A DNA stretch of 47,974 nt from Allocoleopsis sp. (GCA_036703375.1 DATNPC010000503.1:1-47974); one strand, 5' to 3'; positions 17,072-47,640 are shown, counted from the stretch's first letter. A program made the numbers and translations. Notes: generated from the letters alone by a model not told the origin.

Positions 17072-17740
17072 ATGCAGATCAGCGATCGCCTGAACGGGAT
17101 TCCTTCAGAAAGCACTACTCCAACTTCGCACGAGCCAGAGACTCAGTTCCCCGCACGGACGGCGAGTGTCAGCCGCAAAACTGGTGAAACCGACGTGCAA
17201 GTGAGCTTGAATTTAGATGGTACAGGCGCTTGCACGGCTGCCACAGGTATCCCATTTCTCGACCATATGCTGCATCAGATCGCTTCGCATGGCCTGATCG
17301 ATTTGGACGTGCGAGCAAAGGGAGATTGGGAAATTGACGACCACCATACCAACGAAGATGTAGGAATTACACTGGGGATGGCGTTAGGCAAAGCACTGGG
17401 CGAGCGCAAAGGCATTGTCCGGTTCGGTCATTTTCTTGCCCCCCTTGATGAGGCTCTGGTGCAGGTGACTCTCGACTTTTCCGGGCGTCCTCACTTAAGC
17501 TACGGTCTAGAGATTCCCACGCAGCGCGTCGGAACTTACGATACTCAATTAGTACGAGAATTCTTTGTTGCGGTAGTGAATCATAGCCAAATGACGTTGC
17601 ACATCCGTCAGTTGGACGGCATTAATTCGCACCACATTATTGAAGCGACGTTCAAAGCGTTTGCGCGGGCGATTCGGATGGCTGTGGAAATCGATCCCCG
17701 TCGCGCCAGTGCGATCCCCAGTTCAAAAGGCGTCTTGTAG
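17072..17740 (+). CDS. hisB: Imidazoleglycerol-phosphate dehydratase
   Basis: 222 aa. Carries IGPD motifs [16 protein letters not shown] and [14 protein letters not shown]. Confidence 0.95.
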
Positions 17741-17893
17741 ACTCACAAAAGTCAGGTTGCGGCCATCTCTGCTGATGTGCCTTTAGCTTGCAAGTTTAGT
17801 CAACCTAGGCTTTCTGTCTATCGTTATTGACCACTGACAAACAGTTTGATTGTAAAGCAAGCTAACTTCAATGCCGAGCGGGCTTACTTTTCT

Positions 17894-18949
17894 ATGGTTT
17901 CTCTATCTCCCAGTCTAAAAGCCCGACTTTCTACACCGCTCAAGATTGGCTCTTTAGAGGTGAAAAGTCGAGTTCTACAGTCGCCCCTTTCCGGTGTTAC
18001 GGATTTAGTGTTTCGTCGTCTGGTGCGACGCTATGCTCCTGAATCGATGATGTACACGGAGATGGTGCATGCATCAGGATTACGCTACGCCAAAGCACTA
18101 CCCAAAATTATGGAGGTAGACCCGAACGAACGTCCCATCAGCATTCAGTTGTTTGATTGCCGTCCAGATTTCTTAGCAGAAGCGGCGCAGATGGCGGTGG
18201 AGGAAGGAGCAGATACGATTGATATCAATATGGGTTGCCCTGTGAATAAAATCACGAAAAATGGGGGCGGTTCTTCCCTCCTGCGACAACCAGAAACGGC
18301 CCAGGCAATTGTCAGAGCAGTTGTCAAGGCAGTAAACGTGCCAGTGACGGTGAAAACTCGTATCGGTTGGACAGATGAGGAAATCAATATCCTGGAATTT
18401 GCCAAGCGGATGGAAGATGCGGGAGCCCAGATGCTGACACTGCATGCTCGCACTCGCGCTCAGGGCTACAATGGCTCTGCCAAGTGGGAGTGGATTGGGC
18501 GAGTCAAGGAGATTCTCTCGATTCCAGTCATTGCTAATGGGGATATCTTCTCGGTGGAAGCTGCCGTGAACTGTCTGGAACAAACGGGTGCGGATGGGGT
18601 GATGTGTTCGCGAGGAACGCTAGGTTATCCTTTTTTGGTTGGAGAAATTGACTCCTTCCTGAAATCGGGGCAACCGTTGAGGCCACCGACGCCTGTAGAG
18701 CGATTGGAATGTGCGCGAGAACATCTGCAAGCCTTATGGGAGTATAAAGGCGATCGCGGAATTCGTCAGGCTCGCAAGCACATGACATGGTATGCTAAAG
18801 GTTTTGCTGGGTCAGCGCAGTTGCGCGGACAACTGGCGGTCATTGAGGCGGTTGAGCAGGGGGTTGAGTTGATTGACAACGCGATCGCCCTACTTAAGAC
18901 TGGTATACCGGAAAAAGAAGAGTTAGAAGCTCTATTAGTGAAGGTTTGA
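17894..18949 (+). CDS. dusB: tRNA-dihydrouridine synthase (DusB-like)
   Basis: Dus motifs SPLSGVTDLVFRRL, IDINMGCPVNKITK and LTLHARTRAQGY. The track ORF begins at a TTG (17846). I prefer the in-frame ATG at 17894. Confidence 0.88.
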   Translation: MVSLSPSLKARLSTPLKIGSLEVKSRVLQSPLSGVTDLVFRRLVRRYAPESMMYTEMVHASGLRYAKALPKIMEVDPNERPISIQLFDCRPDFLAEAAQMAVEEGADTIDINMGCPVNKITKNGGGSSLLRQPETAQAIVRAVVKAVNVPVTVKTRIGWTDEEINILEFAKRMEDAGAQMLTLHARTRAQGYNGSAKWEWIGRVKEILSIPVIANGDIFSVEAAVNCLEQTGADGVMCSRGTLGYPFLVGEIDSFLKSGQPLRPPTPVERLECAREHLQALWEYKGDRGIRQARKHMTWYAKGFAGSAQLRGQLAVIEAVEQGVELIDNAIALLKTGIPEKEELEALLVKV

Positions 18950-26260: not shown

Positions 26261-29200
26261 TCAATAATTTTGAGCGCAGAGAGTACGATCGCTTTCTGGG
26301 GCGTTGTACTTAAGATAATCCCTGACGCGATCGCAACCGAGCTTCATTAGATCGTTGAAGTCATTGGGATACACCTTCCAGAGTTTGATCGTCTTATCAA
26401 GACTAGCAGAAGCTATCATCTTGCCATCCGGACTGAAACTCACACTCATGACCGCATCACTATGCCCCTTGAGAGAAGTTATTTCTTTATCTGTCGCCAG
26501 ATTCCAGAGCTTGATGTTGTTGTCAGCATCAGCAGAAGCCGAAGCCAAGGTCTTGCCATCCGGACTGAAACTCACGCTATCAACCCAAAGGCTATGTCCC
26601 GTGAGGGTGGTAATCTCTTTGCTTGTTGCCAGATTCCAAAGTTTGATGGTCTTGTCAACACTAGCAGAAGCCAAGGTCTTACCATCTGGGCTGAAACTCA
26701 CGCTATAGACCCTATACTGATGCCCCTTGAGAGTGGTGAGTTCTTTGCCTGTCGCCACATCCCAGAATTTGATAGTCTTGTCATCACCAGCAGAAGCCAA
26801 AGTCTTGCCATCTGGGCTGAAACTCACGCTCTCAACCCCACTGCTATGCCCCTTGAGAGTGGTAAGTTCTTTGCCTGTCGCCACATCCCAGAGTTTGATG
26901 GTCTTATCCCAACTCGCAGAAGCCAAAGTCTTGCCATCTAGGCTGAAGCTCACGCTCTCGACCCCACTGCTATGCCCCTTGAGAGTGGTGATTTCTTTGC
27001 CTGTCGCCACATCCCAGAGTTTGATGGTCTTATCCCAACTCGCAGAAGCCAAGGTTTTGCCATCCGGGTTGAAACTCACGCTATTGACTGCACTATTATG
27101 ACCTTCCAAATGATTACGCTCTTGCAGGTTGTAAATTGCCTGTTGTAGCGCGTAAGTAGTCTGCTGTAGCGCCTCCTGAGTCTGACTTGGAGCGCCACCT
27201 TGTTCCAACTTGGCATTTTTCAGTTTTTTCCCTGCCTGTAGAGCAGTAACCAGCGAGTCAAGCTGCCGATTGGCAAGAAACAACGCATCAGAGGTGTGAG
27301 TTAGGGCAATGATGTTCTGTTGAGTTGCTTCTCTCGTATTCTTCCGAGCTTCATTGCGTTGAGAAAAGGCAAAGAGAGTCGAGCCACTCAGCACTACTAC
27401 AGAAATACCCAAAACAATCAGTGTTGTTCTCTCCTGCTTAACCCTAGCAGCCGACTCCTGAGCGATTTTTCGTGCCGCTTCCAGTTCGCGCTGTTGTCGT
27501 TCCTCGTCTTGTCGAAGCAAATAATCTCGAAACTCTTGACTCGCAGCAATCAATGCCTTCTGTAACTCTGTCGCCTGGGGTTGTTTGTTTTTTTGCTCTG
27601 CTTCTAGTAACCACTGTTGGGCAATTACTAATTCACTCCCCCGCAACAGCAAGTCAGCACTTTGGCTATTTTCGTTCCATTCAATCGCCCTCTGCAACCA
27701 TTTAGTATGACTGTGAACATGGTCGCGGTCAGTATCGATTGTTCTGACCAATTGGTTAAAATTGGCATTAAAATCCCGCTCATTACCCTCAAAATCAATC
27801 CACTGTACCTTGGCTAACTCCGGATGCAGCTCATCTGAATTCACCTCTCGATGCAGCACCGTCACAAACCGCTTATTTAAACTAGCGGCATACTCCACTT
27901 CATCCGCACAATACGGAGAATTCACCGAACGGGGGGACAGAATAAACAAAAAGTTATCGCAGACTTTAATTCCCTGGCATATCTCCTGGGCAAAATCCGC
28001 TCCCGATGCAATGCTTTCCTGGTCAAACCAGGTGGTCTTTCCCTGTATCTGTAACGCATCATTCAGCTTACGGGCAAAGTCCGAATCAGCACGGGAATAG
28101 GAGATAAATACATCCAATGATATTGCCGGAGGTTGCCGCAGACTTTCATTAATAAATTCTTCAATGAACGGTGTCGGCAGATGCAGCGTTCTCTTGTGTG
28201 CCACCTTCATCCAAGTTTCGGCACTCCGCAAGTTATACCCGCGCAGCAGAATACTCGGATTTTCGTGTTGCCGCTTCCACTTCAGGGCTTTGGTGAGCAA
28301 AATCTTATGCTCGTTATAATAAGCCTCATCCTGATGAAAAATCTTCAACAGTTGACTTTCATCGAGATAGTAATCCTCTTCCTTCACGTTGTCTGTGAGG
28401 TCGATATACTGCAACTCTCGCAGCGCTGATGGCACATGCTCCGGTGGAGTTTCTCGGACTAGCACGGGGATAATCCGCTTGTGCAATGACAACGCTAAAT
28501 CTAATTCTCGGTGACAGTAAGTAGAACGTACTGAATTCGGCGAGAGCAGATAGACCAAATTATCCGCTTGTTCAATCCCGCGATTAATTGCCTCATCAAA
28601 TGCTTCCCCGGTTTGAATATCGGTGGTATTCGTCCAAACCGTAACGCTGTCCCGCCTCAAACTGCGGCGAATCTTCTCCATGGCTGCCCTATCCTCATCA
28701 GCATAGGCAAGGAACACCTGCGTCATCAAGTTATTGGCATTTTTGATACTTTCGGTGATGTATTCGCAATGCAAATCGGTAGGAACACAAGGCGGTTGCT
28801 CGTCTTTAAAGCGTATTTTTAACCAAGCTTCTGCTTCTTGGCGTTCTTCCCCAATTAATAAATAACTATTTTGTTTTTGATGTCGTTCCCACTCCAAGGC
28901 TTTGACTAAAAACCCAGTATGCTGCTCGACATAATCGGCATGACGACGAAATAATTCTATTAATCCCGCAAACGATTGCTCAAAATCATCGATTCCTGCT
29001 CGAAAATACACCCAGTTAATCTGGCGAATTGTCGGGTGCATGTTTTGATAATGGTCGTGTTTACCTTGCCCTTTGTACACGTCCCAATCTTGGGCTGTAC
29101 CACTAGGAAATCTCTGCCGCCAAGTCTCCTGACTAATTTGCTCGACATGCAATAGCGGAATAATCCGTTTATTATGCTTGATTGCCAGCTCAATTTCTCT

Positions 29201-29428
29201 GCGACAATAGTCCGAATTAACAGAATGGGGCGAAATGATGAACAGGAAGTTATGCGCCTTCTCGATACCATCATTAATTTGGTTTTGAAAGTCTACAGCG
29301 AGGGGAATATCATTTTGGTCAAACCAAACCTTCAATCCAAGTTCGAGCAATCGATCGTGAAGTTTTGTAGCGAACGCTTTACTATCTGCTCTGCCGTAGG
29401 AGATGAAGGCATCGAAGATATTGTTCAT
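26261..29428 (-). CDS. Triple TIR-domain / single-TM / WD40-repeat protein
   Basis: Three TIR-like modules (FDAFISYGRADS..SDYCRREIELA; QVFLAYADEDR..STYCHRELDLA; DVFISYSRADS..SPYCADEVEYA). One TM helix (TTLIVLGISVVVLSGSTLFAF) and six clear WD40 blades. The ATG at 29428 is preceded by GGAGG. The track start at 29458 is a TTG. Confidence 0.9.
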   Translation of the reverse strand: MNNIFDAFISYGRADSKAFATKLHDRLLELGLKVWFDQNDIPLAVDFQNQINDGIEKAHNFLFIISPHSVNSDYCRREIELAIKHNKRIIPLLHVEQISQETWRQRFPSGTAQDWDVYKGQGKHDHYQNMHPTIRQINWVYFRAGIDDFEQSFAGLIELFRRHADYVEQHTGFLVKALEWERHQKQNSYLLIGEERQEAEAWLKIRFKDEQPPCVPTDLHCEYITESIKNANNLMTQVFLAYADEDRAAMEKIRRSLRRDSVTVWTNTTDIQTGEAFDEAINRGIEQADNLVYLLSPNSVRSTYCHRELDLALSLHKRIIPVLVRETPPEHVPSALRELQYIDLTDNVKEEDYYLDESQLLKIFHQDEAYYNEHKILLTKALKWKRQHENPSILLRGYNLRSAETWMKVAHKRTLHLPTPFIEEFINESLRQPPAISLDVFISYSRADSDFARKLNDALQIQGKTTWFDQESIASGADFAQEICQGIKVCDNFLFILSPRSVNSPYCADEVEYAASLNKRFVTVLHREVNSDELHPELAKVQWIDFEGNERDFNANFNQLVRTIDTDRDHVHSHTKWLQRAIEWNENSQSADLLLRGSELVIAQQWLLEAEQKNKQPQATELQKALIAASQEFRDYLLRQDEERQQRELEAARKIAQESAARVKQERTTLIVLGISVVVLSGSTLFAFSQRNEARKNTREATQQNIIALTHTSDALFLANRQLDSLVTALQAGKKLKNAKLEQGGAPSQTQEALQQTTYALQQAIYNLQERNHLEGHNSAVNSVSFNPDGKTLASASWDKTIKLWDVATGKEITTLKGHSSGVESVSFSLDGKTLASASWDKTIKLWDVATGKELTTLKGHSSGVESVSFSPDGKTLASAGDDKTIKFWDVATGKELTTLKGHQYRVYSVSFSPDGKTLASASVDKTIKLWNLATSKEITTLTGHSLWVDSVSFSPDGKTLASASADADNNIKLWNLATDKEITSLKGHSDAVMSVSFSPDGKMIASASLDKTIKLWKVYPNDFNDLMKLGCDRVRDYLKYNAPESDRTLCAQNY
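26370..27090. repeat. Tandem 126-bp DNA repeats encoding the WD40 blades
   Basis: The string CTGTCGCCACATCCCAGA recurs at 26749, 26875 and 27001, exactly 126 bp apart. The 26875 and 27001 copies share ~52 identical consecutive nt. Confidence 0.9.
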
Positions 29429-29648
29429 TTCAAGACCTCCATACCAAACCAGGGACAAAATGTCCCGACATGGGTTATGGAACTAACTTAAATCTACCCT
29501 AAGAGTGTTGTTTTATTCACTAGTCACCATCTATTGAAAAGCTTAAGATTGGATGCTTCAAACCCTTAAAAATTTCCAGTCGCCATAACCAGCCAGGGTT
29601 TAAACCTGGAGAATGGTGGAAGATGTCAATTACTCAAACTCCTACTCC

Positions 29649-34385: not shown

Positions 34386-35830
34386 CAGACGCTCACCCTA
34401 AGGGGTAGAGCGCTGGCTTCTCAAGATCGCTCTTGAGCATTCCTGGATAACCACTTATCTAGGCAAAAAGCCCCCGACAGTACGGCAAGACCAGGCAGTT
34501 TCCCTTCTCCGTCGTCCACGGATACTACATTATCAAGCCCACGTATTAACACTATTTGAGCCGCAGCATGGTCGCGATGAGTAGAGTATTGACACTCAGG
34601 ACAATTATGAATTCTATCCCCAAGGGTCTTAGACACAGCCGTTTGGCAGTTAGGGCAAGTTTGGGATGTGCCGTTGGGATTGACTTTTTCAAAGTACACC
34701 CCGCGTTTCCAACAAACCCACTCCAACAAACTCAAGAATGTCCCAAAAGATGCATCAACGCATTCCTTCCTGAGCATTCCTCTATTGAGTCCAACAGTGT
34801 TCAGGTTTTCAGCAAAAATAGTCTGTGCTTGGTCGCAAAGCTTGTGGGCATTTTTCAAATGAAAGTCTTTACGACGATTGGCAATGTGGTGATGGAGTTT
34901 GGCTACTTCAATCTGCGCTTTTTCCCAGTTTTTAGAACGTTTCTGTTTCCTTGCAGCTCTGCGTTGCAGCACTTTCAGCCGACTTTGCAAAGTCTTAAAG
35001 AACTTCGGACGTTCTACATAAGTGCCATCAGAAGAGGTAATAAACCGCTCCAGTCCCAAATCAATACCAATAGCACGACCATGAACGGGTATATCGGGAA
35101 TGCTCACATCCGACTGGATGGTTACAATGACATACCATTGAGTCCCTCGACATCTAGACAGCACCCGCACTTGCTTGACGGCAAAACCGTCAGGGATGGA
35201 GCGGTGCAATGTGATGGGGACAAGACCAATTTTGGGCAGTTTAATTTGATTCCCAGATATGGGGCTTTCTTTAAACTGTGGAAAGAGAAACGACTTGAAT
35301 TGTCCGTACTTTTTGAATCTAGGAAACCCAAAGTCTCGCTTACGGAAGTTCTCCCAAGTGTTATGCAGGCGTTTAATTACGTCTTGCAATACCTGCGAAT
35401 GAACGTTTTTGAGTCCTGTCCATGTTTGTTTGAGTACAGGCAGTTGCCGCTTCTGCTCCATATATCCCGGAAAAGGCGCATCAGCACTGATGATGTATTC
35501 CTTTTCCAAGGAGCATCTATCAACCATGCACTTCCGACTATTCATCCAATCCTTAAGTTCTCGCAAGGCATAGTTATAAACCCTGCGACAGCTTTCCAGC
35601 CACGCAAGCATTTGAGCTTGTTGGCTGACATCTGGATCAATTCGGTATGTGTAGTTCATGGTTAACATTCCAGGAGTTTAGCATGACTTACCACTTACGC
35701 TAAATATCTGTTTTCCCACTACATTTGTTAGTCAACTCCATACTTCCGTTGACCCGCCTTATATCCCGACGCTCAATCGTCACGCGGTACTCACCTACGG
35801 TTCGATGTGTCCGCGTCGATTAGAGCGCGG
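34386..35830 (-). mobile_element. tnpB-only IS200/IS605-family (IS1341-type) element with related imperfect hairpins at both ends
   Basis: RE-side hairpin at 34386-34415: CAGACGCTCACCC-TAAG-GGGTAGAGCGCTG. LE-side hairpin at 35767-35830: CGACGCTCAATCG..ACGCGG-loop-CCGCGT..CGATTAGAGCGCGG. Both share the GACGCTCA / TAGAGCGC arms. The exact termini are not determinable by eye. Confidence 0.7.
34421..35668 (-). CDS. tnpB: TnpB (OrfB) RNA-guided endonuclease / IS605-family accessory protein
   Basis: 415 aa. RuvC-like motifs IGIDLGLERF and THRDHAAAQIV, and a zinc ribbon CPNC...CPEC. No tnpA is adjacent. Confidence 0.9.
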   Translation of the reverse strand: MLTMNYTYRIDPDVSQQAQMLAWLESCRRVYNYALRELKDWMNSRKCMVDRCSLEKEYIISADAPFPGYMEQKRQLPVLKQTWTGLKNVHSQVLQDVIKRLHNTWENFRKRDFGFPRFKKYGQFKSFLFPQFKESPISGNQIKLPKIGLVPITLHRSIPDGFAVKQVRVLSRCRGTQWYVIVTIQSDVSIPDIPVHGRAIGIDLGLERFITSSDGTYVERPKFFKTLQSRLKVLQRRAARKQKRSKNWEKAQIEVAKLHHHIANRRKDFHLKNAHKLCDQAQTIFAENLNTVGLNRGMLRKECVDASFGTFLSLLEWVCWKRGVYFEKVNPNGTSQTCPNCQTAVSKTLGDRIHNCPECQYSTHRDHAAAQIVLIRGLDNVVSVDDGEGKLPGLAVLSGAFCLDKWLSRNAQERS

Positions 35831-39068: not shown

Positions 39069-40217
39069 ATGGCTGAATCTCTTTATCATATAAACAAGCC
39101 TAAGCGGGAAAGAGAGGATATGCGAGATTTATTTCGTGGCTATTATAAACCCTCGCCAAAAGAATTGATAGAAATCTGGAATCGGTGTACTTTTTCGTTC
39201 GACGCTAATGTTTTGCTGCATATCTATAGTTATACACCGGAAACTAGAGAGAGATTTTTTGAGATTATTACTCGATTGAGGGAGAGGATTTGGATACCTC
39301 ATCAAGTCGCTTACGAATACCAAAAGAATCGATTGTATGTCATATCCGATCAAGTCAAAGCTTATGAAGATATCGCTTCAATTCTCAACAAGAATATCTC
39401 TAATTTGAAACAAGAGTTACTTAAAGATTATAAGCGCCATCCTTTTGTAGACACCAAAGGTATTATCAAAGATATCGAAAAAGAGGTTGAGGAAATTAAA
39501 GAAAAGCTCAAGGCGGCTGAGCTGAATCATCCTAACTATATAGAAAATGATGAGCTTCGAGATGTGCTAACTACGTTGCTAGATGGAAAAGTTGGCAAAC
39601 CTTACTCGGAAGAGGACTTAGAGAATATTTATATCAAAGCCGAGAAACGATTCAATTATAAAAAACCACCCGGTTATAAGGATGCCAAAAAGCCTATCCC
39701 AAAAAATTATGGTGACGTGGTACTTTGGTTTCAGCTCATCGATTACGCCAGAATTCAACCGAATCCAATCCTATTTATTACGGATGATGATAAAGAAGAT
39801 TGGTGGCTTAAATATGATGGAGAAACTCTTGAACCTCGACCCGATTTAGTCCAGGAAATATTATCTGAAGTTGGTCGGGATGATTTTCAATTTTATATGT
39901 ATCATAGCGACCAATTTATGGATTACGCAGAAAAGTTTCTCGATTTACCCATTCAACCCGAGGCTATTGAAGAAGCGAGGGAAATCATGCTACAAGAATC
40001 CGTTTCTAAGCGAATAGTCGTTGAGTCCAATTACTTGCGAAGTGTGGGTTATGATACTTCTAGCCAGATTCTTGAAATAGAATTTCAAAGGGGAGATGTT
40101 TACCAATATATGGATGTTCCCCTAGAAGTTTATACCGATTTAATGAATGCTCCCTCACACGGTAGGTACTTTAACACCAATATTAAGGAAGTTTACTCCT
40201 ACCGCAAGTTAGGTTAA
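39069..40217 (+). CDS. PIN-like (DUF4935-type) nuclease domain fused to a C-terminal KTSC domain
   Basis: N-terminal FSFDANVLLHIY and ...LFITDDDKEDWW are typical of PIN-like DUF4935 proteins. The C-terminal 70 aa (YDTSSQILEIEFQRGDVYQYMDVPLEVYTDLMNAPSHGRYFNTNIKEVYSY) matches the KTSC domain pattern. The gene is AT-rich (19/60 GC over 39421-39480) and has no exact HIP1 site. Confidence 0.75.
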   Translation: MAESLYHINKPKREREDMRDLFRGYYKPSPKELIEIWNRCTFSFDANVLLHIYSYTPETRERFFEIITRLRERIWIPHQVAYEYQKNRLYVISDQVKAYEDIASILNKNISNLKQELLKDYKRHPFVDTKGIIKDIEKEVEEIKEKLKAAELNHPNYIENDELRDVLTTLLDGKVGKPYSEEDLENIYIKAEKRFNYKKPPGYKDAKKPIPKNYGDVVLWFQLIDYARIQPNPILFITDDDKEDWWLKYDGETLEPRPDLVQEILSEVGRDDFQFYMYHSDQFMDYAEKFLDLPIQPEAIEEAREIMLQESVSKRIVVESNYLRSVGYDTSSQILEIEFQRGDVYQYMDVPLEVYTDLMNAPSHGRYFNTNIKEVYSYRKLG

Positions 40218-40769: not shown

Positions 40770-42929
40770 ATGCTGAACCAACTAAGAGACATCTTCTCAG
40801 GAAACTTTATAGCTCATGGGTCATGCTACCTCTGGAATCCAGCACTAGTGTGGCTACATGCTAGCTCGGATTTTCTCATTAGCTTATCGTATTATTCGAT
40901 TCCCCTGCTACTGCTCTATTTTGTACGTCGGCGTCACGATGTACCATTCCAGGGAATTTTTATCCTATTTAGTGCATCGATCTTATCCTGTGGGACAAGT
41001 CACTTACTAGAAATTTGGACGCTGTGGCATCCGGACTATTGGCTATCCGGTTTGTCAAAAGCTGTGACAGCTGTAGTCTCTTCGTACACTGCTGCAAAAA
41101 TGGTGCCATTGCTGCCGAAGGCACTGGCATTACCCGGTTCATCTCAGCTGGCAGTTGCTAACCTTGCCTTAGCACGGGAAGTGGCCGAATACAAACAAAC
41201 AGTAGCCGCGCTCCAGCAAGCCAATGAGGAATTAGAACAACAAGTGGAGAGGCGAACTAGCGAACTGTCAAGAGCCTATGAAGCGTTGCAAGTCGAAATT
41301 TGCGATCGCCAATCCGTAGAATTCGCACTAGCAGAACGCGATCGCTATTTGGCGGCATTCGTCGAAATGCAGCACCAGTTATTAGCGCTCAAACCCGAAG
41401 AAAACTACTACGCCTCGATTGTAGAACGGCTGGGACAATGGAGCCGTGCTAGCCAAATCAATATCTTTGAAATCTGCGGCGACAAGCGAAGTCAACTCCT
41501 GTGTCAGTGTGCCGAGTGGGTTGCCCCCGAACGAAGTGGAGACAACCACCACCCGCGTCGGAGTTTCCCTTACGACGAATATTTCCCTCGCTGGATGCCA
41601 ATCTTGGCACAGGGACAAACCTTGATGGGATTAGCCAGCGAGTTCCCTCATCAAGAGCGTTTGATTCTAGAGCGAATGGGAATTTTATCCCTCCTCGTTT
41701 TGCCCCTGACGGTGAGCGATCGCTTTTTTGGCTTTATCGTGTTTGAAAACTGTAGCGAAGCCCGAGTTTGGTCTGCCTCAGCAGTAGATTTATTCAAGGC
41801 AACAGTAGCTTCGCTTTCGCTCCAACACGAGCGAGCGATCGCACAAGGGGCTGTGCGGCGTTCGGAAGCTCAGCTGAAAGCGCAATCTACCGAACTCGAA
41901 CAGACAGTATATCAGCTCAAGCAAGCTCAAGCGCAACTCATGCAGAGCGAAAAAATGTCGAGCTTGGGCATGATGGTTGCTGGCATTGCTCACGAAATTA
42001 ACAATCCAGTCGGTTTCGTGTATGGCAATCTCACGCCAGCCGAGGAATATATCCAAGATTTATTGGGACTGATTAATTTATACCGACAGCACTATCCGGT
42101 TCCCGTACCAGCGATTCAGGCTTATACCGAGGACATCGATTTAGACTTTTTGATGGAAGACTTGCCCAATCTCCTAGACTCGATGAAAGTCGGAGCGGAG
42201 CGTATCCGCGATATCGTGACTACTTTGCGAACGTTCTCGCGGGTTGATGAAGCGAAGATGAAGCCAGTTAATATTCATGAAGGTATCGACAGCACCTTAG
42301 TGATTTTGCACCATCGCCTCAAGGAGAAACACGGACGCTTACCCGTTGAGGTTGTTAAGAAATATGGCAATCTTCCTCCAGTAGAAGGATATGCCGGACA
42401 GCTCAACCAAGTGTTTATGAACATTTTGGTCAATGCCATAGATGCGTTGGATAGTAAGCGTTTGAGAGAGAGTTGTGCTAACTCTGAGTCAATTTCTTCA
42501 CGAATTTGTCCGCCACCACGGATTGAGATTCGGACGGAATTAATTCATAGTGGAGAATCCAATTCAGAATCCAAGAATGTAGTCATTCGGATTATTGATA
42601 ATGGCTCGGGTATTACGGAGTGGGTACGACTTAGGCTATTCGATCCCTTCTTTACCACCAAACCAGTGGGGCAGGGAACTGGGTTGGGGTTGTCTATTAG
42701 CTACCAGATTGTCGTAGCGAAACATGGTGGACAATTACAATGTAGGTCGGTACCCGGAGAGGGAACAGAGTTTATTATTCAGCTTCCAGTTCTACAACAG
42801 ACTCAGCAGCAGCATCGCGATAGCACTCAAACGATTCCAAAAGGAGTTGAGCCAACTCAGCCGCTTTACCAGTATTTAGAGACGTCGGTAGAAAATCGCT
42901 ATCCAATACACCCGATCGCTCATCACTAA
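40770..42929 (+). CDS. Ethylene-binding-domain-like / GAF / histidine kinase
   Basis: The N-terminal 3-TM region aligns by eye with plant ETR1: SDFLISLSYYSIPLLLLYFV...ILSCGTSHLLEIWT...AVTAVVS versus SDFFIAIAYFSIPLELIYFV...IVLCGATHLINLWT...VLTAVVS. The Cys/His pair is spaced as in ETR1 C65/H69. A GAF-like region follows, then H-box [17 protein letters not shown] and HATPase boxes. Confidence 0.85.
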   Translation: MLNQLRDIFSGNFIAHGSCYLWNPALVWLHASSDFLISLSYYSIPLLLLYFVRRRHDVPFQGIFILFSASILSCGTSHLLEIWTLWHPDYWLSGLSKAVTAVVSSYTAAKMVPLLPKALALPGSSQLAVANLALAREVAEYKQTVAALQQANEELEQQVERRTSELSRAYEALQVEICDRQSVEFALAERDRYLAAFVEMQHQLLALKPEENYYASIVERLGQWSRASQINIFEICGDKRSQLLCQCAEWVAPERSGDNHHPRRSFPYDEYFPRWMPILAQGQTLMGLASEFPHQERLILERMGILSLLVLPLTVSDRFFGFIVFENCSEARVWSASAVDLFKATVASLSLQHERAIAQGAVRRSEAQLKAQSTELEQTVYQLKQAQAQLMQSEKMSSLGMMVAGIAHEINNPVGFVYGNLTPAEEYIQDLLGLINLYRQHYPVPVPAIQAYTEDIDLDFLMEDLPNLLDSMKVGAERIRDIVTTLRTFSRVDEAKMKPVNIHEGIDSTLVILHHRLKEKHGRLPVEVVKKYGNLPPVEGYAGQLNQVFMNILVNAIDALDSKRLRESCANSESISSRICPPPRIEIRTELIHSGESNSESKNVVIRIIDNGSGITEWVRLRLFDPFFTTKPVGQGTGLGLSISYQIVVAKHGGQLQCRSVPGEGTEFIIQLPVLQQTQQQHRDSTQTIPKGVEPTQPLYQYLETSVENRYPIHPIAHH

Positions 42930-43192: not shown

Positions 43193-43364
43193 GCTTAACG
43201 CGAGGCTTCAAGCCATTTGAATGGAGGGATGCGATCGCAAAGTCCCAGATTTCGTTGAATTAACCTAACTTGCAGCGCGAGCGAACAACGCCTACCGTGA
43301 CGATCCACCTAGCTGTATGCCTAAAATTAGATAGTTAACGCTTGTGTTAACAGTAGGTAAGCAC

Positions 43365-44006
43365 ATGGGTACTCAGTTAATCTCATTCCGTCTTAGAGAT
43401 GAAGAAGCTGCCCTGCTCATGCAGCGGGCCCAACCAGAGTCGAGTCCGAGCTTGACTGCCCAGAGAATCATTCGGCAGGTATTGGGTACAGAGGAAATGC
43501 CACCAGACAAATTATCGACCCTGTTAACGAGAGTCAGCGAGTTCCAGGAGCAAGTGGAGTCGATTAAGGGCTTTGTGGACGACACCATTGACCAACGCTT
43601 AGCGGCGGTGGACAAACTGGTGAATGAATCGGTTAACGTGCAAATGCAAACCGAACTGCTGCAAATGCGATCGCGTTTTGATGAGTTGGAGCAGCGTTTA
43701 GAGCAGTATTTTCATGCTCAGCGGAAATCGATACCGCAGTTTAAGAAAGATAACAAAGTATCTAGCCTGCGAAAACAAAAGCAAAAACAGAAAGCTGAGT
43801 TATCGACTCCACCGCTTAACCAAACTGAGTTAGCCCAACGCCTTCACCATCCAGATACAGGACTTCCGTATACTCCTCGCTCGATTAGCCGTCAAAAACT
43901 GAAAAAAGATTTTCCGAAGTGGTCGGAGCAACGCGACCCGGAGGGCGTACTTTGGAAGTATGAGCCAAAAGATGGGCTTTTTTATCCGTTAGAACCTCTT
44001 TATTAA
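43365..44006 (+). CDS. Putative ribbon-helix-helix DNA-binding protein (mobile-DNA-like)
   Basis: The N-terminal QLISFRLRDEEAALLMQRA resembles a CopG/Arc-type RHH beta-strand plus helix. Coiled-coil middle. The C-terminal LNQTELAQRL...WSEQRDPEGVLWKYEP is HTH-like. The track ORF starts at a GTG at 43344. The ATG at 43365 is preferred. Confidence 0.5.
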   Translation: MGTQLISFRLRDEEAALLMQRAQPESSPSLTAQRIIRQVLGTEEMPPDKLSTLLTRVSEFQEQVESIKGFVDDTIDQRLAAVDKLVNESVNVQMQTELLQMRSRFDELEQRLEQYFHAQRKSIPQFKKDNKVSSLRKQKQKQKAELSTPPLNQTELAQRLHHPDTGLPYTPRSISRQKLKKDFPKWSEQRDPEGVLWKYEPKDGLFYPLEPLY

Positions 44007-44108: not shown

Positions 44109-44252
44109 GAATGGCACTGACTTAACTGTTAATCAACCCTTGCGCGGGGGGTTTGGGGGAGACGCATGTCCCCCAATGGGGGTTTGGGGGAAACCCCCAA
44201 GTCCGGGTTTTTCTTCTACACCTGCAACTTTCGCCTTAAGTCAGTGCCATTC
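44109..44252. repeat. MITE-like foldback element with G5/C5-rich core
   Basis: 17-bp inverted repeat GAATGGCACTGACTTAA (44109-44125) / TTAAGTCAGTGCCATTC (44236-44252). It flanks GGGGGTTTGGGGGA x2 and the GGGGGAAACCCCC and GGGGGAGACGCATGTCCCCC hairpins. Confidence 0.7.
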
Positions 44253-44255
44253 TAG

Positions 44256-46916
44256 TTAAGGTCGTTGCACCAACGGGGATTGTCCAGCCGCAGGGGGTAA
44301 ACCAGCACGTTTCTCCAGTTCCTGGGCGACAAAGTCAGGAACTTTGAATTCTGCCCCTTTGGCAAGACAGCAATCTCGCACGGCGAGTAGAAATCCTTGA
44401 ATCGCTGCCGATCCTCCGGGCAGGGTGGAAACTTGGGTGAGTAATTTGCGCCACTGGCCTTGATTTTTGCCATAATCCTCTAATAACTGTAAGGCGGCAA
44501 GATACTCGGCGAGGGGGTCGAGGGCAAAGCGAATTTGGTCTTGAGCTGGGCCGATGGTTTGAATGAGACGCAGGCGATCTTCTAGATATTTGAGGCGATT
44601 CTCTACATTGTCCCCGCTGAGGGCAGCTAGTGCATCGTTGCGTTTAGCGGTTGTGGGTCGATAGGTTTCCTTGAGGCATTCCCACGCGATCGCTTTTGCA
44701 TCGTCCTGAATGATTCGGTCATCCAATTTATCCCCATTGACATCCCGATTGAGTTCGTTGAGATAGCTCAGCATTAAATCGGGAATGTTATCGGGTAGGG
44801 GAGCAAGGCCTTGCGCTTTTACACCGGATGCTGTACCATCTCTGACAGCAATCAGCTGTTCGGCGTAGAGCTTAGCCAGTAATACAGTGATGTTGCGTGC
44901 CCCCACCATAACGGAAAGTCGGCTACAAGCCTCGAAAAACTCGGCATCGGTGAAGCGATCGCGTTTTCCTCTTTGGGTAAGGTAAGCTTCCATAAACGAA
45001 GAGAGGCGATTGCCTTCAATTCGCAGCGGCTTGAGGGTTGTCTTGGTGACTTTGCCTAGCGTTTCTTCCGTGCGTGAGGTAATCACTAACGCATTGACAC
45101 AAAAGTCCGGTAGTTCGGGACGAATTGCCTTGCGTGTCGCGTCGCTCATTTCTGAGAGGTGATCGACAATGACGAGAATGCGCCGCTGCCGGAGGAGGCG
45201 TTCGAGCAGTTCTTCGGAAACTGGGTTGGCTTCGTTGGTTAAATCTTGCAACTGTCCCCGAATCGCGGCCATAAACGGGGGTTTATCCGCTGCCTCGAAG
45301 TCTAGTTCTTCCTCGATGAGGACTGGTAGCATGGGGTGTTCGCACAGGCGTTCGGCTTCATCTTCTGCAACCGCCCATTTAGCGATTTGGCAGGCAAGGC
45401 TGGTCTTTCCGGCTCCGCCTTCACCCCAGATTAGCAGGCAACCTCGCTTTTTCTTAAACTTTTCTCGTAAGTCTTTGGCGGTAAACTGGGGTAGAGTTTC
45501 GCCGTCTAGGACAACGGGGACGGGGATGTAGATAGTGCGATCGCGAACGGTATCCTTTTCTTGAAATTCCTCTCGCACTGACTTGATATGTGCGGCTACC
45601 CAGGCATCTAGCACTCTAGAGTGGTAGTGAAAAAAACCGACAAACAGGGCGTAGCGAATGGGTACGCTGATGCCGATAAACGGCAACGGTACGTCGGTGT
45701 AGGGTTTTAGGGCGTTGTTAATGTGCAACAACCACAAGGGACGCAGCCAAAGCAGGATTAACCAGAGCAACGGTACCAAAACGATGTAACTGGTGGCGGT
45801 TAAGAGCCATTGGTGGTTGAGAATCCAGTCCCAAGCGCGATCGAAAAAGCGGGTTTCCTGTTCGGCTTTGAGGGCTAAAAGAGGACGACGCACGACGGCG
45901 ATGTCTTCTTCTGCAAATCGAGCTTGCGGGTCTTCTACAATTTTTAGAGCTTTTTCTAAAGTCGAAATATCTTTTGCCAACTCCGTGCTGGATAGAGTCT
46001 TGGCTTTATCCTGAAACACGCCAGCAATCCCACCCAGTCCGTTGGCTGCATTGCGGCGGACTTCCATCTTTTCGTCTTGCAAGGCGGCAATTAAAGCGGG
46101 GATTGCGGGTTTGGCGTCTAAACCAATTTGCCCTAAAGCTGCTGCTGCATTCAAACGCACGTATTTGTTCTCGTCTTGCAAGGCGTTCATCAGGTTGGGG
46201 ACGGCGGTTTTCGCATTTGTGCCAAATCGTCCCAAGGCATCGGCAGCCCCCTGGCGCACGTATTTATCTTTATCCTGCAAGGCAGCAATTAACGCTGGCA
46301 CGGCTGTCTTCGGTTGCGTCCCGATTCGTCCCAGAGCCGTCGCGGCATTTAAGCGGACTTCTGCACTCTTATCTTGCAAGGCCTCAATGAGTTTGGGGAC
46401 GGCGGCTGATGCTTCGGAACCGATTTTTCCTAACGCATAGGCAACGACGATGCGAAGATTTCGATCGTCATCTTGTAAGGCTTCAACGAGCTTAGGGACA
46501 GCGGCGAACGCTTCTGGCCCGATTCGTCCTAGAGCATAAGCAGTAATGCGGCGAATGTATTCATCCTCATCCTGCAACGTGACGAGTAGGGCAGGGACGG
46601 CAGATGCAGCTTCCGCACCGATTTGACCTAAAGCCGAGGCCGCACGCCAGCGCACTTGCTGATTCTCCGATTTCAACGCCTCGATCAGAAAGGGAACGGC
46701 TGGAGAACCAATTTTTGCGATCGCGTCGGCAGCATCATGGCGCACTCGGAAATCATTATCCGTTAATTTCTCGATCAGGGGAGCCACCTGCGTATAGGGA
46801 ACGGGTTGCGCCCAACTGTTGCGGCTTACCTGCAAGCACAACAACAGGCACAGGATGACAATCTTCAAGACTGCTGCTGTGAGGAACTTAGCTCTAGTGT
46901 GTTTGACCACGCACAT
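44256..46916 (-). CDS. Signal peptide / HEAT-repeat (PBS-lyase type) / TM / NACHT-like STAND P-loop NTPase
   Basis: 886 aa. Signal-like AAVLKIVILCLLLCLQVSRNSWAQP and about 9 HEAT units (D..VR..AA.ALG.IG....AVP.LI.ALQD). Hydrophobic helices (WLLTATSYIVLVPLLWLILLWLRPLWLL). Walker A LLIWGEGGAGKTSLA, Walker B RILVIVDHLSE and ALVITSRTEE. Confidence 0.85.
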   Translation of the reverse strand: MCVVKHTRAKFLTAAVLKIVILCLLLCLQVSRNSWAQPVPYTQVAPLIEKLTDNDFRVRHDAADAIAKIGSPAVPFLIEALKSENQQVRWRAASALGQIGAEAASAVPALLVTLQDEDEYIRRITAYALGRIGPEAFAAVPKLVEALQDDDRNLRIVVAYALGKIGSEASAAVPKLIEALQDKSAEVRLNAATALGRIGTQPKTAVPALIAALQDKDKYVRQGAADALGRFGTNAKTAVPNLMNALQDENKYVRLNAAAALGQIGLDAKPAIPALIAALQDEKMEVRRNAANGLGGIAGVFQDKAKTLSSTELAKDISTLEKALKIVEDPQARFAEEDIAVVRRPLLALKAEQETRFFDRAWDWILNHQWLLTATSYIVLVPLLWLILLWLRPLWLLHINNALKPYTDVPLPFIGISVPIRYALFVGFFHYHSRVLDAWVAAHIKSVREEFQEKDTVRDRTIYIPVPVVLDGETLPQFTAKDLREKFKKKRGCLLIWGEGGAGKTSLACQIAKWAVAEDEAERLCEHPMLPVLIEEELDFEAADKPPFMAAIRGQLQDLTNEANPVSEELLERLLRQRRILVIVDHLSEMSDATRKAIRPELPDFCVNALVITSRTEETLGKVTKTTLKPLRIEGNRLSSFMEAYLTQRGKRDRFTDAEFFEACSRLSVMVGARNITVLLAKLYAEQLIAVRDGTASGVKAQGLAPLPDNIPDLMLSYLNELNRDVNGDKLDDRIIQDDAKAIAWECLKETYRPTTAKRNDALAALSGDNVENRLKYLEDRLRLIQTIGPAQDQIRFALDPLAEYLAALQLLEDYGKNQGQWRKLLTQVSTLPGGSAAIQGFLLAVRDCCLAKGAEFKVPDFVAQELEKRAGLPPAAGQSPLVQRP

Positions 46917-47043: not shown

Positions 47044-47640
47044 TTACCAAATCTGAGTCAAATCCAAGACAAATCCCGGCAGTACATCCTCCCCTGAAAT
47101 GGTAGTTGGCGAGTCTAGCACTACAACCTCTTGCCCTGGTTTGTAGACTTCTACCTTGTTCGTTTTTGGGTCAATTAACCAGCCCAAACGCACACCATTA
47201 TCGATGTACTCTCGCATTTTCTCCTGAAGTTCTTTCAATGTGTCATTTTTGGAGCGTAGCTCGACCACAAAATCAGGAGAAAGCTGGGAAAACTCTTGCT
47301 GTTCGTCTTCACTTAAGGTGTTCCAGCGTTCATTACTCACCCAAGTCGCATCTGGTGACTTCACAGCACCATTGGGTAAAGTAAACCCAGTGGAGGAGTC
47401 GAAGGTTTTACCCAAGCCTGTTTGTCGATTCCAAAGCCAGAGTTGACCATAGACTTCGCCATTTTTCTTACCTGTCCAGGGGGTTGTTGGGGGCATAACA
47501 ATTACTTCTCCCGTCGCAGCACGTTCTAACCGCAAGTCCCGGTTGGCTTCACACAGTTTCAGAAAGTCCTTACTGGTTAGGTTGGGGATGGTGAGGGTGA
47601 TGGGGTTCATGGCTAACAGGTTGGGTACTGGCCTAATCAC
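47044..47640 (-). CDS. Uma2-family (DUF820) endonuclease
   Basis: 198 aa. Typical Uma2 pattern ...ERAATGEVIVMPP...SSTGFTLPNGAVKSPDATWVS...PDFVVELRSKNDT (PD-(D/E)xK-like). Confidence 0.88.
   Translation of the reverse strand: MIRPVPNLLAMNPITLTIPNLTSKDFLKLCEANRDLRLERAATGEVIVMPPTTPWTGKKNGEVYGQLWLWNRQTGLGKTFDSSTGFTLPNGAVKSPDATWVSNERWNTLSEDEQQEFSQLSPDFVVELRSKNDTLKELQEKMREYIDNGVRLGWLIDPKTNKVEVYKPGQEVVVLDSPTTISGEDVLPGFVLDLTQIW

What the first reader, a model, noticed from the sequence alone, without database searches (positions are those of the whole stretch)
44256..46916. Membrane-embedded NACHT-like NTPase with an N-terminal, apparently exported HEAT-repeat array
The order of elements in the translation is as follows. 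First a signal-peptide-like segment (…LCLLLCLQVSRNSWA/QP). Then about 9 PBS-lyase-type HEAT repeats. Then strongly hydrophobic helices (WLLTATSYIVLVPLLWLILLWLRPLWLL; VPLPFIGISVPIRYALFVGFF). Then a STAND/NACHT-type core (Walker A LLIWGEGGAGKTSLA, Walker B RILVIVDHLSE, ALVITSRTEE). Last, ~330 aa of helical region with no recognisable effector. Canonical STAND/Avs/NLR-like proteins are soluble and carry sensor repeats C-terminal to the NTPase. Here the repeat array is N-terminal and predicted to lie on the other side of the membrane. This topology parallels the TIR-TM-WD40 protein 15 kb upstream. An Uma2-family nuclease gene sits 127 bp upstream on the same strand and could act as an effector, although Uma2 genes are very abundant in cyanobacteria. 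An RHH protein converges on the 3' end. Four exact HIP1 sites inside the gene suggest it is long-resident rather than recently imported.
Basis: partly seen in the sequence, partly recalled or inferred. Interest (0 to 1): 0.65.

Follow-up and report, generated by a model that had tools for sequence, protein, structure and literature searches.

The report
Receptor-like membrane NACHT protein, HEAT outside
This cyanobacterial gene encodes a single-pass membrane protein with a HEAT-repeat array predicted to lie outside the cytoplasm and an NLR-type (NACHT) ATP switch inside; it belongs to a large, conserved, functionally unstudied family typical of filamentous cyanobacteria (Anabaena alr2986).

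Summary
Window 44256-46916 (minus strand) is an intact 886-aa ORF. It reads: Sec-type signal peptide (…NSWA|QP), about 9 PBS-type HEAT repeats, a stalk helix running into one TM helix (369-391), a very conserved juxtamembrane segment, then a full NACHT module ending in Pfam NCH4.

- There is one TM helix. The second hydrophobic stretch (409-430) models as cytosolic.
- The "330-aa helical region" is the HD1-WHD-HD2 part of NACHT. Foldseek's best matches are NLRC4, NOD2 and NLRP3.

The gene is not an oddity. The TM-NACHT-NCH4 core has 968 representative clusters at E≤1e-30, nearly all with an N-terminal signal peptide and HEAT ectodomain (some POTRA+HEAT). Close orthologues (57-92% identical) are all labelled as filamentous cyanobacteria and sit in housekeeping synteny. 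The Anabaena PCC 7120 member (inferred alr2986) was listed in 2010 among genes found only in filamentous species.

Uma2 linkage is partial. The RHH call is unsupported.

Best reading: a type-I receptor NACHT that senses a conserved extracytoplasmic ligand. The output is unknown. It is a new variant of a known kind; interest is moderate.

The parts
44256..46916 (-). Whole gene: 886-aa SP-HEAT-TM-NACHT-NCH4 protein
   Evidence: ORF list; orthologues 57-92% identical with the same architecture; AF2 model with mean pLDDT 83.6
46809..46916 (-). Residues 1-36: Sec-type signal peptide (n-region K5/R8/K10, h-region 12-30, c-region NSWA|QP)
   Evidence: Hydropathy 2.56; the motif is conserved across homologues
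45927..46790 (-). Residues 43-330: PBS-type HEAT solenoid (seven 33-aa repeats plus caps), predicted to be extracytoplasmic
   Evidence: Pfam HEAT_2 5e-54 and HEAT_PBS 1e-32; alphaRep matches in PDB; repeat register and surface conservation; 0 Cys in 328 ectodomain residues
45813..45926 (-). Residues 331-368: stalk helix that continues into the TM helix
   Evidence: AF2 helices 336-367 and 369-391
45741..45812 (-). Residues 369-392: the single transmembrane (stop-transfer) helix
   Evidence: KD 2.29; present 126±8 aa before Walker A in 211 of 216 relatives; invariant Y377
45621..45740 (-). Residues 393-432: conserved cytosolic juxtamembrane segment (RPLWLLxINNALKPYTD…GFFHYH).
   Evidence: Mean identity 72.6%, the highest of all regions; position-wise conservation; modelled as short strands and helices, not a TM helix
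45021..45620 (-). Residues 433-632: NACHT nucleotide-binding domain. Walker A GEGGAGKT is 498-505 (nt 45402-45425). Walker B LVIVDHLSE is 581-589 (nt 45150-45176). Sensor-1 TSR is 613-615 (nt 45072-45080).
   Evidence: Invariant columns; Pfam NACHT 22.6 bits here and ≥26.7 bits in relatives; Foldseek to NLRC4/NOD2/NLRP3
44415..45020 (-). Residues 633-834: helical domain 1, winged helix and helical domain 2 of the NACHT module
   Evidence: The cytosolic model (pLDDT 85.3, pTM 0.80) aligns over about 480 columns with the NLRP3 NACHT construct 7alv (TM 0.50/0.51), NLRC4 and NOD2
44292..44414 (-). Residues 835-875: NCH4, 'NACHT C-terminal Helical domain 4'
   Evidence: Pfam PF22731 E 3.3e-21, 75 bits against a cut-off of 27; present in almost every relative
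47044..47640 (-). Upstream Uma2-family (PD-(D/E)xK-like) gene. The likely start is the ATG giving 188 aa. It is a possible but unproven partner.
   Evidence: Pfam Uma2 9e-46; orthologues 88-94% identical, same strand and position, in L008, L020 and L023; no terminator in the 127-bp gap
43344..44006 (+). It is not part of the unit.
   Evidence: No RHH or other family; found only in the closest relative L009

Best explanation
The gene encodes a type-I, single-pass membrane receptor built on an NLR-type switch.

Shown by sequence, profile and model:
- A cleavable Sec signal peptide.
- A 9-unit HEAT solenoid.
- A rigid stalk helix that continues into one TM helix.
- A strongly conserved juxtamembrane segment.
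- A complete NACHT module (NBD-HD1-WHD-HD2/NCH4) in which every catalytic residue is under selection.

Inferred mechanism:
1. The HEAT solenoid is exported to the periplasm, or possibly the thylakoid lumen. Its concave face binds a ligand that is conserved within the lineage.
2. Binding is passed through the stalk/TM helix and the juxtamembrane segment to the NACHT domain.
3. The NACHT domain exchanges ADP for ATP and oligomerises at the inner face of the membrane.
4. The protein carries no enzymatic effector. The output is therefore either recruitment of a conserved cytosolic partner through HD2/NCH4, or clustering of the TM helices.

Inferred role: a vertically inherited, slowly evolving surveillance or signalling function tied to the filamentous lifestyle, rather than a mobile, fast-evolving phage-defence cassette.
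For: Architecture: Pfam and the AF2 models.

NACHT identity:
- NCH4 scores above its cut-off.
- Foldseek's top hits are NLRC4, NOD2, NLRP3 and NAIP5 at E about 1e-9, ahead of CED-4, MalT and ORC.
- Walker A, Walker B and the sensor arginine are invariant.

Export of the HEAT array:
- The 'SWA|Q' signal peptide is conserved.
- There is one universal TM helix at a fixed distance from the P-loop.
- The net charge is more positive on the C-terminal side of the TM.
- Paralogues carry periplasm-type POTRA_2/POTRA domains ahead of HEAT.
- A Rhizobium relative has a Ycf48-like propeller ectodomain in the same position.
- Cys content is 0.20% in ectodomains against 1.55% in cytosolic parts.

Sensor role of HEAT:
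- The ectodomain is the variable part in kind and in repeat number, while TM-NACHT-NCH4 is constant.
- Within the orthologue clade, concave-surface positions 12, 15, 16 and 19 are conserved at 0.73-0.94 although they differ between repeats.

Non-mobile, conserved role:
- Housekeeping synteny in Nostocales and Coleofasciculaceae.
- HIP1 density.
- No hit to any PADLOC STAND or NACHT defence model; the only significant PADLOC hits lie in the HEAT array.
- The Anabaena member, 56% identical, is listed among 32 genes found only in filamentous cyanobacteria and is kept in the smallest such genomes (PMC2821919).
- That member also has a HetR ChIP peak and is 3-fold lower in a hetR deletion mutant (PMC4192349).
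Against: - Topology was not tested with SignalP or DeepTMHMM, or by experiment.
- The K/R count alone does not favour either side of the TM helix.
- Some paralogues carry HEAT arrays C-terminal to NACHT, in the cytoplasm. HEAT is therefore not intrinsically an exported module here.
- By position, the N-terminus is where NLRs usually carry effectors, not sensors.
- No ligand, partner or output is known, and no RNA data exist for this organism.
- The equation of BAB74685.1 with alr2986 rests on my accession arithmetic plus the matching product name, not on a direct look-up.
- Enrichment of conflict systems in multicellular bacteria (PMC7159879) means a filament-only distribution does not exclude an immune role.
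Confidence: 0.5

Rival explanations
1. Inside-out abortive-infection device. The cytosolic NACHT/NCH4 part senses an intracellular cue such as a phage protein or a guarded host factor. Oligomerisation bundles the N-terminal TM helices, and clusters the HEAT arrays, to breach or depolarise the membrane. In this reading the TM and ectodomain are the effector.
For: In NLR-type proteins the N-terminus is the usual effector position, and short C-terminal extensions without repeats occur in proven antiphage bNACHT proteins (preprint 10.1101/2022.07.19.500537). No enzymatic effector is present. Some paralogues have only a short N-terminus plus the TM helix, with HEAT repeats C-terminal in the canonical sensor position.
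Against: The TM core is poorly conserved (47% mean identity, only Y377 invariant), which is not what a specific pore-lining helix would show. The gene sits in housekeeping synteny and matches no PADLOC STAND or NACHT defence model. The cytosolic part evolves slowly, at about 70% identity across orders. A large ectodomain with a conserved surface is hard to explain as a mere pore accessory.
Confidence: 0.2
2. Two-gene module: the upstream Uma2-family nuclease is the effector and is co-transcribed with the receptor NACHT.
For: The Uma2 gene is on the same strand with a 127-bp gap and no intrinsic terminator. Orthologous Uma2 (88-94% identical, more conserved than the NACHT protein itself) occupies the same place in L008, L020 and L023. 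Other Uma2 subfamilies lie within 2.5 kb in L001, L005, L006, L015 and the Anabaena locus L026, and nowhere else in those loci. Uma2 matches the PADLOC candidate PDC-S03 at E 2e-11.
Against: Uma2 is absent next to the gene in L002, L003, L007, L010, L016, L018, L021 and L022. Where present, its subfamily, side and orientation vary. Most positive loci share ancestry, so they count as few independent events. From my own knowledge, Uma2 genes are very numerous in cyanobacterial genomes.
Confidence: 0.12
3. Three-pass topology with no export. The N-terminal hydrophobic stretch is an uncleaved anchor. Segments 369-391 and 409-430 form a hairpin, so both the HEAT array and NACHT are cytosolic and the protein is simply membrane-tethered.
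For: Segment 409-430 reaches KD 1.5-2.0 in this clade. PBS-type HEAT proteins of cyanobacteria are mostly cytosolic (my knowledge). Cytosolic C-terminal HEAT arrays exist in paralogues.
Against: This topology would put a K/R-rich N-terminus outside the cell. The 'SWA|Q' cleavage-type motif is conserved. Segment 409-430 contains a near-invariant Arg and prolines, is below threshold in Nostocales members, and is not helical in either AF2 model. POTRA and Ycf48-like ectodomains occur in relatives. The ectodomain is depleted in Cys.
Confidence: 0.07

Closest known systems
Bacterial NACHT / NLR-related proteins (bNACHT; Kibby et al., preprint 10.1101/2022.07.19.500537; Kaur et al. eLife 2020/2021)
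   Same: It has the NACHT module with an NCH-type C-terminal helical domain. The authors report that bNACHT proteins are most numerous in cyanobacteria. [quoted passage not shown]
   Different: The described sensors sit C-terminal to NACHT and the effectors N-terminal. Here an exported repeat array is N-terminal, a single TM helix precedes NACHT, and no effector domain is present. I found no architecture with HEAT N-terminal to a lone NACHT, and no NCH4, in the held Table S1. The gene is not in a defence island and matches no PADLOC STAND or NACHT defence model.
Animal NLRs NLRC4, NOD2, NLRP3 and NAIP5
   Same: They are the best structural matches over the whole NBD-HD1-WHD-HD2 module (E about 1e-9, TM about 0.5 over 450-500 columns). 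The motifs are Walker A, a DxxxE-type Walker B and TSR sensor-1.
   Different: Animal NLRs are soluble, with C-terminal LRR sensors and N-terminal CARD, PYD or BIR domains. Sequence identity is only 13-16%. Read by eye, the WHD motif (FALDPLAEYLAA) appears to lack the ADP-contacting histidine of animal NLRs. That comparison is from memory and was not tested.
Single-pass receptor kinases and other type-I receptors (plant LRR-RLKs, Toll-like receptors)
   Same: The logic is the same: signal peptide, solenoid-repeat ectodomain, one TM helix, and a cytosolic signalling domain that acts by induced oligomerisation.
   Different: The cytosolic domain is a STAND NTPase, not a kinase or TIR domain. No homology is implied; the resemblance is functional only.
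Anabaena sp. PCC 7120 alr2986 ('HEAT repeat-containing PBS lyase') and Nostoc punctiforme gi 186681409
   Same: It is the same family and architecture, 56% identical over 815 aa. It is listed among genes present only in filamentous cyanobacteria (PMC2821919), and a HetR ChIP peak lies at the locus (PMC4192349).
   Different: It has a different genomic neighbourhood (L026). No functional study of it was found. The name 'PBS lyase' is an annotation artefact of the HEAT repeats: the CpcE score is 94 bits against a cut-off of 330.
DGR-diversified STAND antigen sensors of multicellular bacteria (Doré et al. PNAS 2024, PMC10907252)
   Same: These STAND/NACHT proteins were predicted to place sensor domains either in the cytoplasm or in the periplasm.
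   Different: Their sensor is a C-type lectin hypermutated by a retroelement. Here the HEAT surface is conserved among orthologues, and I saw no reverse transcriptase in the part of the window I annotated (21.9-47.6 kb).

Membership tests
NACHT clade of STAND NTPases | P-loop Walker A GxxxxGK[ST] | tested here: met
   GEGGAGKT at 498-505. G498, G503, K504 and T505 are invariant in 103 sequences.
NACHT clade of STAND NTPases | Walker B hhhhD followed by a second acidic residue, and a sensor-1 arginine in a 'TSR' motif | tested here: met
   LVIVD585HLSE589 and ITS614R615. D585, S614 and R615 are invariant. That these motifs are typical of NACHT is from my own knowledge.
NACHT clade of STAND NTPases | The NBD is followed by a helical domain, a winged helix and a second helical domain, with a fold closest to known NACHT proteins | tested here: met
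   Foldseek ranks NLRC4, NOD2, NLRP3 and NAIP5 first (E 1e-9 to 1e-8, TM about 0.5). CED-4, MalT and ORC/RFC rank lower.
NACHT clade of STAND NTPases | Pfam PF05729 at or above its gathering score | tested here: not met
   This protein scores 22.6 bits against 26.7. Relatives with the same core do pass: P0188 36.0, P0194 31.1, P0191 30.4 and P0147 28.5 bits. The NACHT-specific NCH4 domain passes here, at 75 bits against 27.
NACHT clade of STAND NTPases | Nucleotide-dependent oligomerisation | not testable with these tools
   This needs purified protein.
Antiphage bNACHT / Avs defence systems | A recognised effector domain (nuclease, TIR, SIR2, protease, etc.) fused to the STAND module | tested here: not met
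   Pfam, NCBIfam, PADLOC and PHROGs find only HEAT, NACHT/AAA and NCH4.
Antiphage bNACHT / Avs defence systems | Detected by defence-system profiles, or located in a defence island or mobile element | tested here: not met
   The only significant PADLOC hits lie in the HEAT array; none is to an Avs or NACHT model. Orthologues sit next to ribF-surE-pheS-recQ, or cpc-rluD and a histidine kinase. One POTRA paralogue does lie beside T4SS genes and a transposase.
Antiphage bNACHT / Avs defence systems | Protects against phage | not testable with these tools
   No experiment was possible, and none was found in the literature.
Sec-exported type-I membrane protein | An n-h-c signal peptide with small residues at -3 and -1 | tested here: met
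   K5/R8/K10; hydrophobic 12-30; S34-W-A36|Q37. The layout is conserved across the family. No dedicated predictor (SignalP) was available.
Sec-exported type-I membrane protein | A single stop-transfer TM helix, with the C-terminal domain in the cytoplasm | tested here: met
   One helix, 369-391. The NTPase domain needs cytosolic ATP. Net charge is +1.9 on the C-terminal side against +0.55 on the N-terminal side.
Sec-exported type-I membrane protein | Experimental localisation of the ectodomain, and whether it faces the periplasm or the thylakoid lumen | not testable with these tools
   This needs reporter fusions or fractionation.
Phycobilin lyase / NblB (the database name 'PBS lyase') | Scores above the equivalog cut-offs for CpcE, CpcF, CpeY or NblB | tested here: not met
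   CpcE 94 bits against 330, NblB 70 against 300, CpcF 44 against 220. The matches cover repeat units only.

The most novel reading that the evidence does not exclude
A single polypeptide joins the two arms of innate sensing that eukaryotes keep separate: a surface pattern-recognition ectodomain and an NLR-type oligomerising switch. In filamentous cyanobacteria, whose periplasm is continuous along the filament (my own knowledge, not checked here), it would monitor that shared space for a conserved danger or integrity signal. It would then trigger a cell-autonomous, ATP-gated response such as sacrificial death or isolation of the affected cell. That would make it a multicellularity-linked 'transmembrane resistosome'.
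Probability: 0.3. Interest if true: 0.8.

Novelty: new variant of a known kind. Interest (0 to 1): 0.55.

Why it matters
NLR/STAND switches are understood as cytosolic sensors. A large, conserved family that wires the same switch to an exported repeat sensor through one TM helix would show that NACHT oligomerisation can be driven across a membrane.

The family is very large: 968 clusters at 50% identity score E≤1e-30. It is kept in the most reduced genomes of filamentous cyanobacteria and is absent from the unicellular ones compared in 2010. It is therefore a testable candidate for a function specific to the multicellular habit, and a genetically tractable member exists in Anabaena PCC 7120 (alr2986).

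The result also corrects a widespread misannotation ('PBS lyase').

Tried and rejected
- PDB sequence search with the cytosolic 456 aa found nothing meaningful (best E 0.07, XPB).
- PDB profile search and Foldseek with the full-length protein were swamped by HEAT/alphaRep and importin hits. I solved this by modelling residues 401-886 alone.
- I searched Kibby et al. Table S1 for HEAT+TM+NACHT or NCH4 strings and found none. The held text may be cut, and the final Cell version was not available.
- There were no RNA-seq runs for co-transcription. Only soil-metagenome DNA runs hold the sequence.
- The promoter scan found no sigma-70-like site in 43.9-48.0 kb, which is uninformative for cyanobacteria.
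- The RHH assignment of the 220-aa neighbour found no Pfam or PHROG support, even for the isolated N-terminal 60 aa at E≤10.
- Taxonomic naming of distant representatives mostly returned unnamed metagenome proteins.
- The K/R positive-inside count alone is not discriminating (2.5 against 1.9-2.5).
- The genome-contig scan with a single protein returned only 15 loci, so the neighbourhood statistics rest on about 20 loci.
- I considered KAP NTPases, whose TM segments are inserted inside the P-loop domain. I rejected this because the TM helix here precedes an uninterrupted NACHT domain.
Full report
**What is there**

The window has 51 HIP1 octamers in 48 kb, and housekeeping genes such as gatB and argJ. 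It is therefore a chromosomal piece of a cyanobacterium. Near-identical DNA occurs only in soil metagenomes. The closest named relatives are MAGs labelled Coleofasciculaceae, Allocoleopsis and Symplocastrum.

The finding's coordinates are exact. 44256..46916 on the minus strand is an uninterrupted 886-aa ORF. Its length and N-terminus agree with dozens of orthologues of 877-899 aa.

**Anatomy**

- Pfam finds HEAT_2 (E 5e-54) and HEAT_PBS over residues ~40-330. It finds PF22731 NCH4, 'NACHT C-terminal Helical domain 4', at 835-875 (E 3e-21, 75 bits against a cut-off of 27). It gives sub-threshold NACHT (22.6 against 26.7 bits), AAA_16 and NB-ARC hits around 488-630.
- NCBIfam matches to CpcE, NblB and CpcF are far below their cut-offs. 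The frequent database name 'PBS lyase' is a repeat artefact.
- An AlphaFold2 model built from 103 homologues has mean pLDDT 83.6. It shows an N-terminal helix 7-28, a HEAT solenoid 45-330, and a long helix 336-367 that runs straight into the hydrophobic helix 369-391.
It is below threshold in many homologues and carries a near-invariant arginine. In both models it forms two short strands and short helices packed on the cytosolic domain. The protein is therefore single-pass.
- A second model of residues 401-886 (pLDDT 85.3, pTM 0.80) was searched against the PDB. The top matches are NLRC4 (4kxf, E 1.2e-9), NOD2 (5irm), the NLRP3 NACHT domain (7alv; TM 0.50/0.51 over 478 columns) and NAIP5. CED-4, MalT and ORC/RFC rank lower.
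- The 'about 330 aa of helical region with no recognisable effector' is therefore the HD1-winged-helix-HD2 half of the NACHT module, ending in NCH4. There is no additional domain and no enzymatic effector.
- Catalytic residues are invariant over 103 sequences: G498, G503, K504 and T505 (Walker A), D585 with E589 (Walker B), and S614-R615 (the 'TSR' sensor-1). The NTPase is under selection to work.

**Topology**

Six lines of evidence point the same way.

1. The N-terminus has a K/R n-region, an 18-residue hydrophobic core and S-W-A|Q. The 'SWAQ' end is conserved even where the rest of the N-terminus is not. A crude heuristic of my own finds such a peptide in 185 of 214 relatives with a long N-terminal region. 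The rest look like truncated gene calls.
2. One TM helix lies 126±8 residues before Walker A in 211 of 216 proteins.
3. Net charge is more positive on its C-terminal side, +1.9 against +0.55. K/R counts alone do not discriminate.
4. Several paralogues carry ShlB-type POTRA_2 and POTRA domains in front of the HEAT array. From my own knowledge, these are periplasmic modules. A 29%-identical Rhizobium plasmid protein has a Ycf48-like propeller, then a TM helix, then the same core.
5. The ectodomain has no cysteine (0 of 328 residues) and the cytosolic part has 8 of 490. Family-wide the figures are 0.20% against 1.55%. Cytosolic C-terminal HEAT extensions of paralogues have 0.58%. This support is weak.
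6. An NTPase cannot work outside the cytoplasm, which excludes any topology with an even number of spans after an exported N-terminus.

No dedicated predictor was available. Periplasm and thylakoid lumen cannot be told apart.

**How common it is**

An exhaustive HMMER search with residues 343-886 finds 1774 representative clusters (50% identity) at E≤1e-3 and 968 at E≤1e-30. The best 150 all score below 1e-135, in proteins of 534-1920 aa. TM-juxtamembrane-NACHT-NCH4 is the constant core. What varies is:

- the length of the HEAT ectodomain (250 to about 1400 aa);
- the occasional POTRA domains;
- in a minority, a short N-terminus with cytosolic C-terminal HEAT repeats, an FGE-sulfatase domain or a second STAND NTPase.

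Several relatives pass Pfam's NACHT gathering score.

Within the alignment of close homologues, the juxtamembrane segment and the NACHT module are the most conserved parts (about 70-73% mean identity). The TM core, stalk and HEAT array are less so (47-56%).

In the 33-aa repeat, positions 12, 15, 16 and 19 differ from repeat to repeat. From my knowledge of alphaRep design, these are the concave-surface positions. They are nevertheless conserved at 0.73-0.94 among the 26 close orthologues, more than many outer-face positions. That is the signature of a conserved ligand, not of an arms race.

**Genomic context**

- In Cylindrospermum PCC 7417 and Rivularia PCC 7116 the gene lies in the same housekeeping block: ribF, a metallo-β-lactamase-fold gene, surE, pheS and a divergent recQ-like helicase.
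- In the Coleofasciculaceae-type loci the order is cpc operon, rluD-like gene, variable Uma2 genes, HEAT-NACHT, a small ORF, then a convergent ethylene-receptor-like histidine kinase and a GST. The window has the same right-hand side.
- Together with the four HIP1 sites, this supports long residence and vertical descent.
- One POTRA paralogue sits beside T4SS genes, a transposase and a SMODS gene, so some paralogues do travel.
- The 220-aa convergent ORF is present only in the nearest relative and has no RHH or other family match.

**Uma2**

The upstream gene is a clear Uma2 member (E 9e-46). It is separated by 127 bp with no terminator. Orthologues 88-94% identical occupy the same place and strand in L008, L020 and L023. 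Other Uma2 subfamilies, mostly on the other strand, lie within 2.5 kb in L001, L005, L006 and L015. One lies downstream in the Anabaena locus L026. No Uma2 was seen elsewhere in these loci or in the rest of the window.

Uma2 is absent in L002, L003, L007, L010, L016, L018, L021 and L022. The association is more than nothing, but it is lineage-restricted, positionally loose, and counts as few independent events. I treat it as a lead, not as part of the system.

**Literature**

- Bacterial NACHT proteins are a known and experimentally validated antiphage family, most numerous in cyanobacteria. [quoted passage not shown]
- Doré et al. predict periplasmic placement of some STAND-linked sensors.
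- I found no description of the SP-HEAT-TM-NACHT-NCH4 arrangement, and none in the held Table S1 of Kibby et al..
- The Anabaena PCC 7120 member is BAB74685.1/WP_010997137.1, 56% identical over 815 aa. By accession arithmetic from hetR, and by its product name, it is alr2986. This step is my inference.
- alr2986, named 'HEAT repeat-containing PBS lyase', is one of 32 genes that Stucken et al. found in all filamentous cyanobacterial genomes and in no unicellular one. It is retained in the two smallest such genomes, although it is not in their 10-gene core (PMC2821919).
- A HetR ChIP-seq peak lies at alr2986, and its transcript is 3-fold lower in a hetR deletion mutant 6 h after nitrogen step-down (PMC4192349).
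- No functional study was found.

**Interpretation**

The anatomy is shown. The mechanism is inferred.

The most economical reading is a type-I receptor whose exported HEAT solenoid binds a conserved extracytoplasmic ligand. The signal passes through a rigid stalk/TM helix and the conserved juxtamembrane segment to a NACHT switch that oligomerises on the inner membrane face. The output is open: a partner recruited by HD2/NCH4, or clustering of the TM helices.

The main rival inverts the flow. The NACHT part senses a cytosolic cue and the TM/ectodomain is the effector, as the N-terminal position and the lack of any other effector would suggest.

The slow evolution, housekeeping synteny, filament-restricted distribution and conserved binding face argue for a physiological or surveillance role tied to filament life, rather than a typical mobile defence gene. 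An immune role is not excluded, because such systems are enriched in multicellular bacteria (PMC7159879).

**Verdict**

This is an ordinary member of a very large, catalogued but uncharacterised family, whose architecture is a distinctive variant of the bacterial NLR theme.

Noticed in passing
window 26261-29458 (-): A 1065-aa protein with three TIR_2 domains (E 5e-85), one TM helix at about residues 680-700 (KD 2.34) and a C-terminal WD40 propeller. It has no N-terminal signal peptide, so the TIR domains would be cytosolic and the WD40 propeller outside. This is the same 'repeat sensor outside, signalling domain inside' logic as the HEAT-NACHT gene.
   Followed up: partly
window 40770-42929 (+): A histidine kinase with an ethylene-receptor-type N-terminal membrane domain (ETR1_N, E 8e-40), plus GAF and HisKA/HATPase. 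It is the convergent neighbour of the HEAT-NACHT gene in the window and in L004, L005 and L009. L023 holds kinase ORFs of the same cluster in that position, which I did not compare directly.
   Followed up: partly
window 47044-47640 and loci L001, L005, L006, L008, L015, L020, L023, L026: Uma2-family genes of different subfamilies and orientations recur within 2.5 kb of the HEAT-NACHT gene in 9 of about 20 loci, and were not seen elsewhere in those loci. I cannot tell whether this is a hot-spot, an ancestral cluster with turnover, or a functional link.
   Followed up: partly
window 39069-40217 (+) and 34421-35668 (-): A PIN_8 + KTSC protein (E 7e-72) and an IS605 OrfB/TnpB-type gene (OrfB_IS605 + Cas12f1-like TNB) lie 4-10 kb from the finding.
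   Followed up: no
L021 (Hapalosiphonaceae JJU2), 8001-10706: The POTRA_2+HEAT paralogue of the family sits directly after TrbI and VirD4/TraG-type T4SS genes. It is followed by a DDE transposase and a SMODS/DncV-like gene. This is a mobile, defence-like setting, unlike that of the orthologues.
   Followed up: no
L022 (Calothrix PCC 7507), 14899-17991: A second, unrelated NACHT protein (NNH3-NACHT-pentapeptide repeats, 1030 aa) lies 4 kb downstream of the family member.
   Followed up: no
L025 (Rhizobium phaseoli plasmid pRphaN831c), 1514-5314: A 1266-aa 'YCF48-related protein' has a signal-peptide-like N-terminus, propeller repeats, a TM helix at about 729-760 and a core 29% identical to this NACHT module. 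It has no canonical Walker A by regex. It may be an inactive proteobacterial cousin of the receptor architecture.
   Followed up: partly
window 44180-44204: A strong GC-rich hairpin (11 pairs) followed by a T-run lies between the 3' ends of the convergent 220-aa ORF and the NACHT gene. It is probably a terminator.
   Followed up: no
L012 ('Gemmataceae' MAG), L005 ('Waterburya' MAG) and L009 ('Chroococcales' MAG): Contigs carrying close orthologues (47-95% identical) are labelled with non-filamentous or non-cyanobacterial taxa. L009 shares the window's neighbours (the 220-aa ORF and the histidine kinase), and L005 shares a cpc-type operon and the kinase with the Coleofasciculaceae-type loci. 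For these two, mis-binning seems more likely than true occurrence.
   Followed up: no
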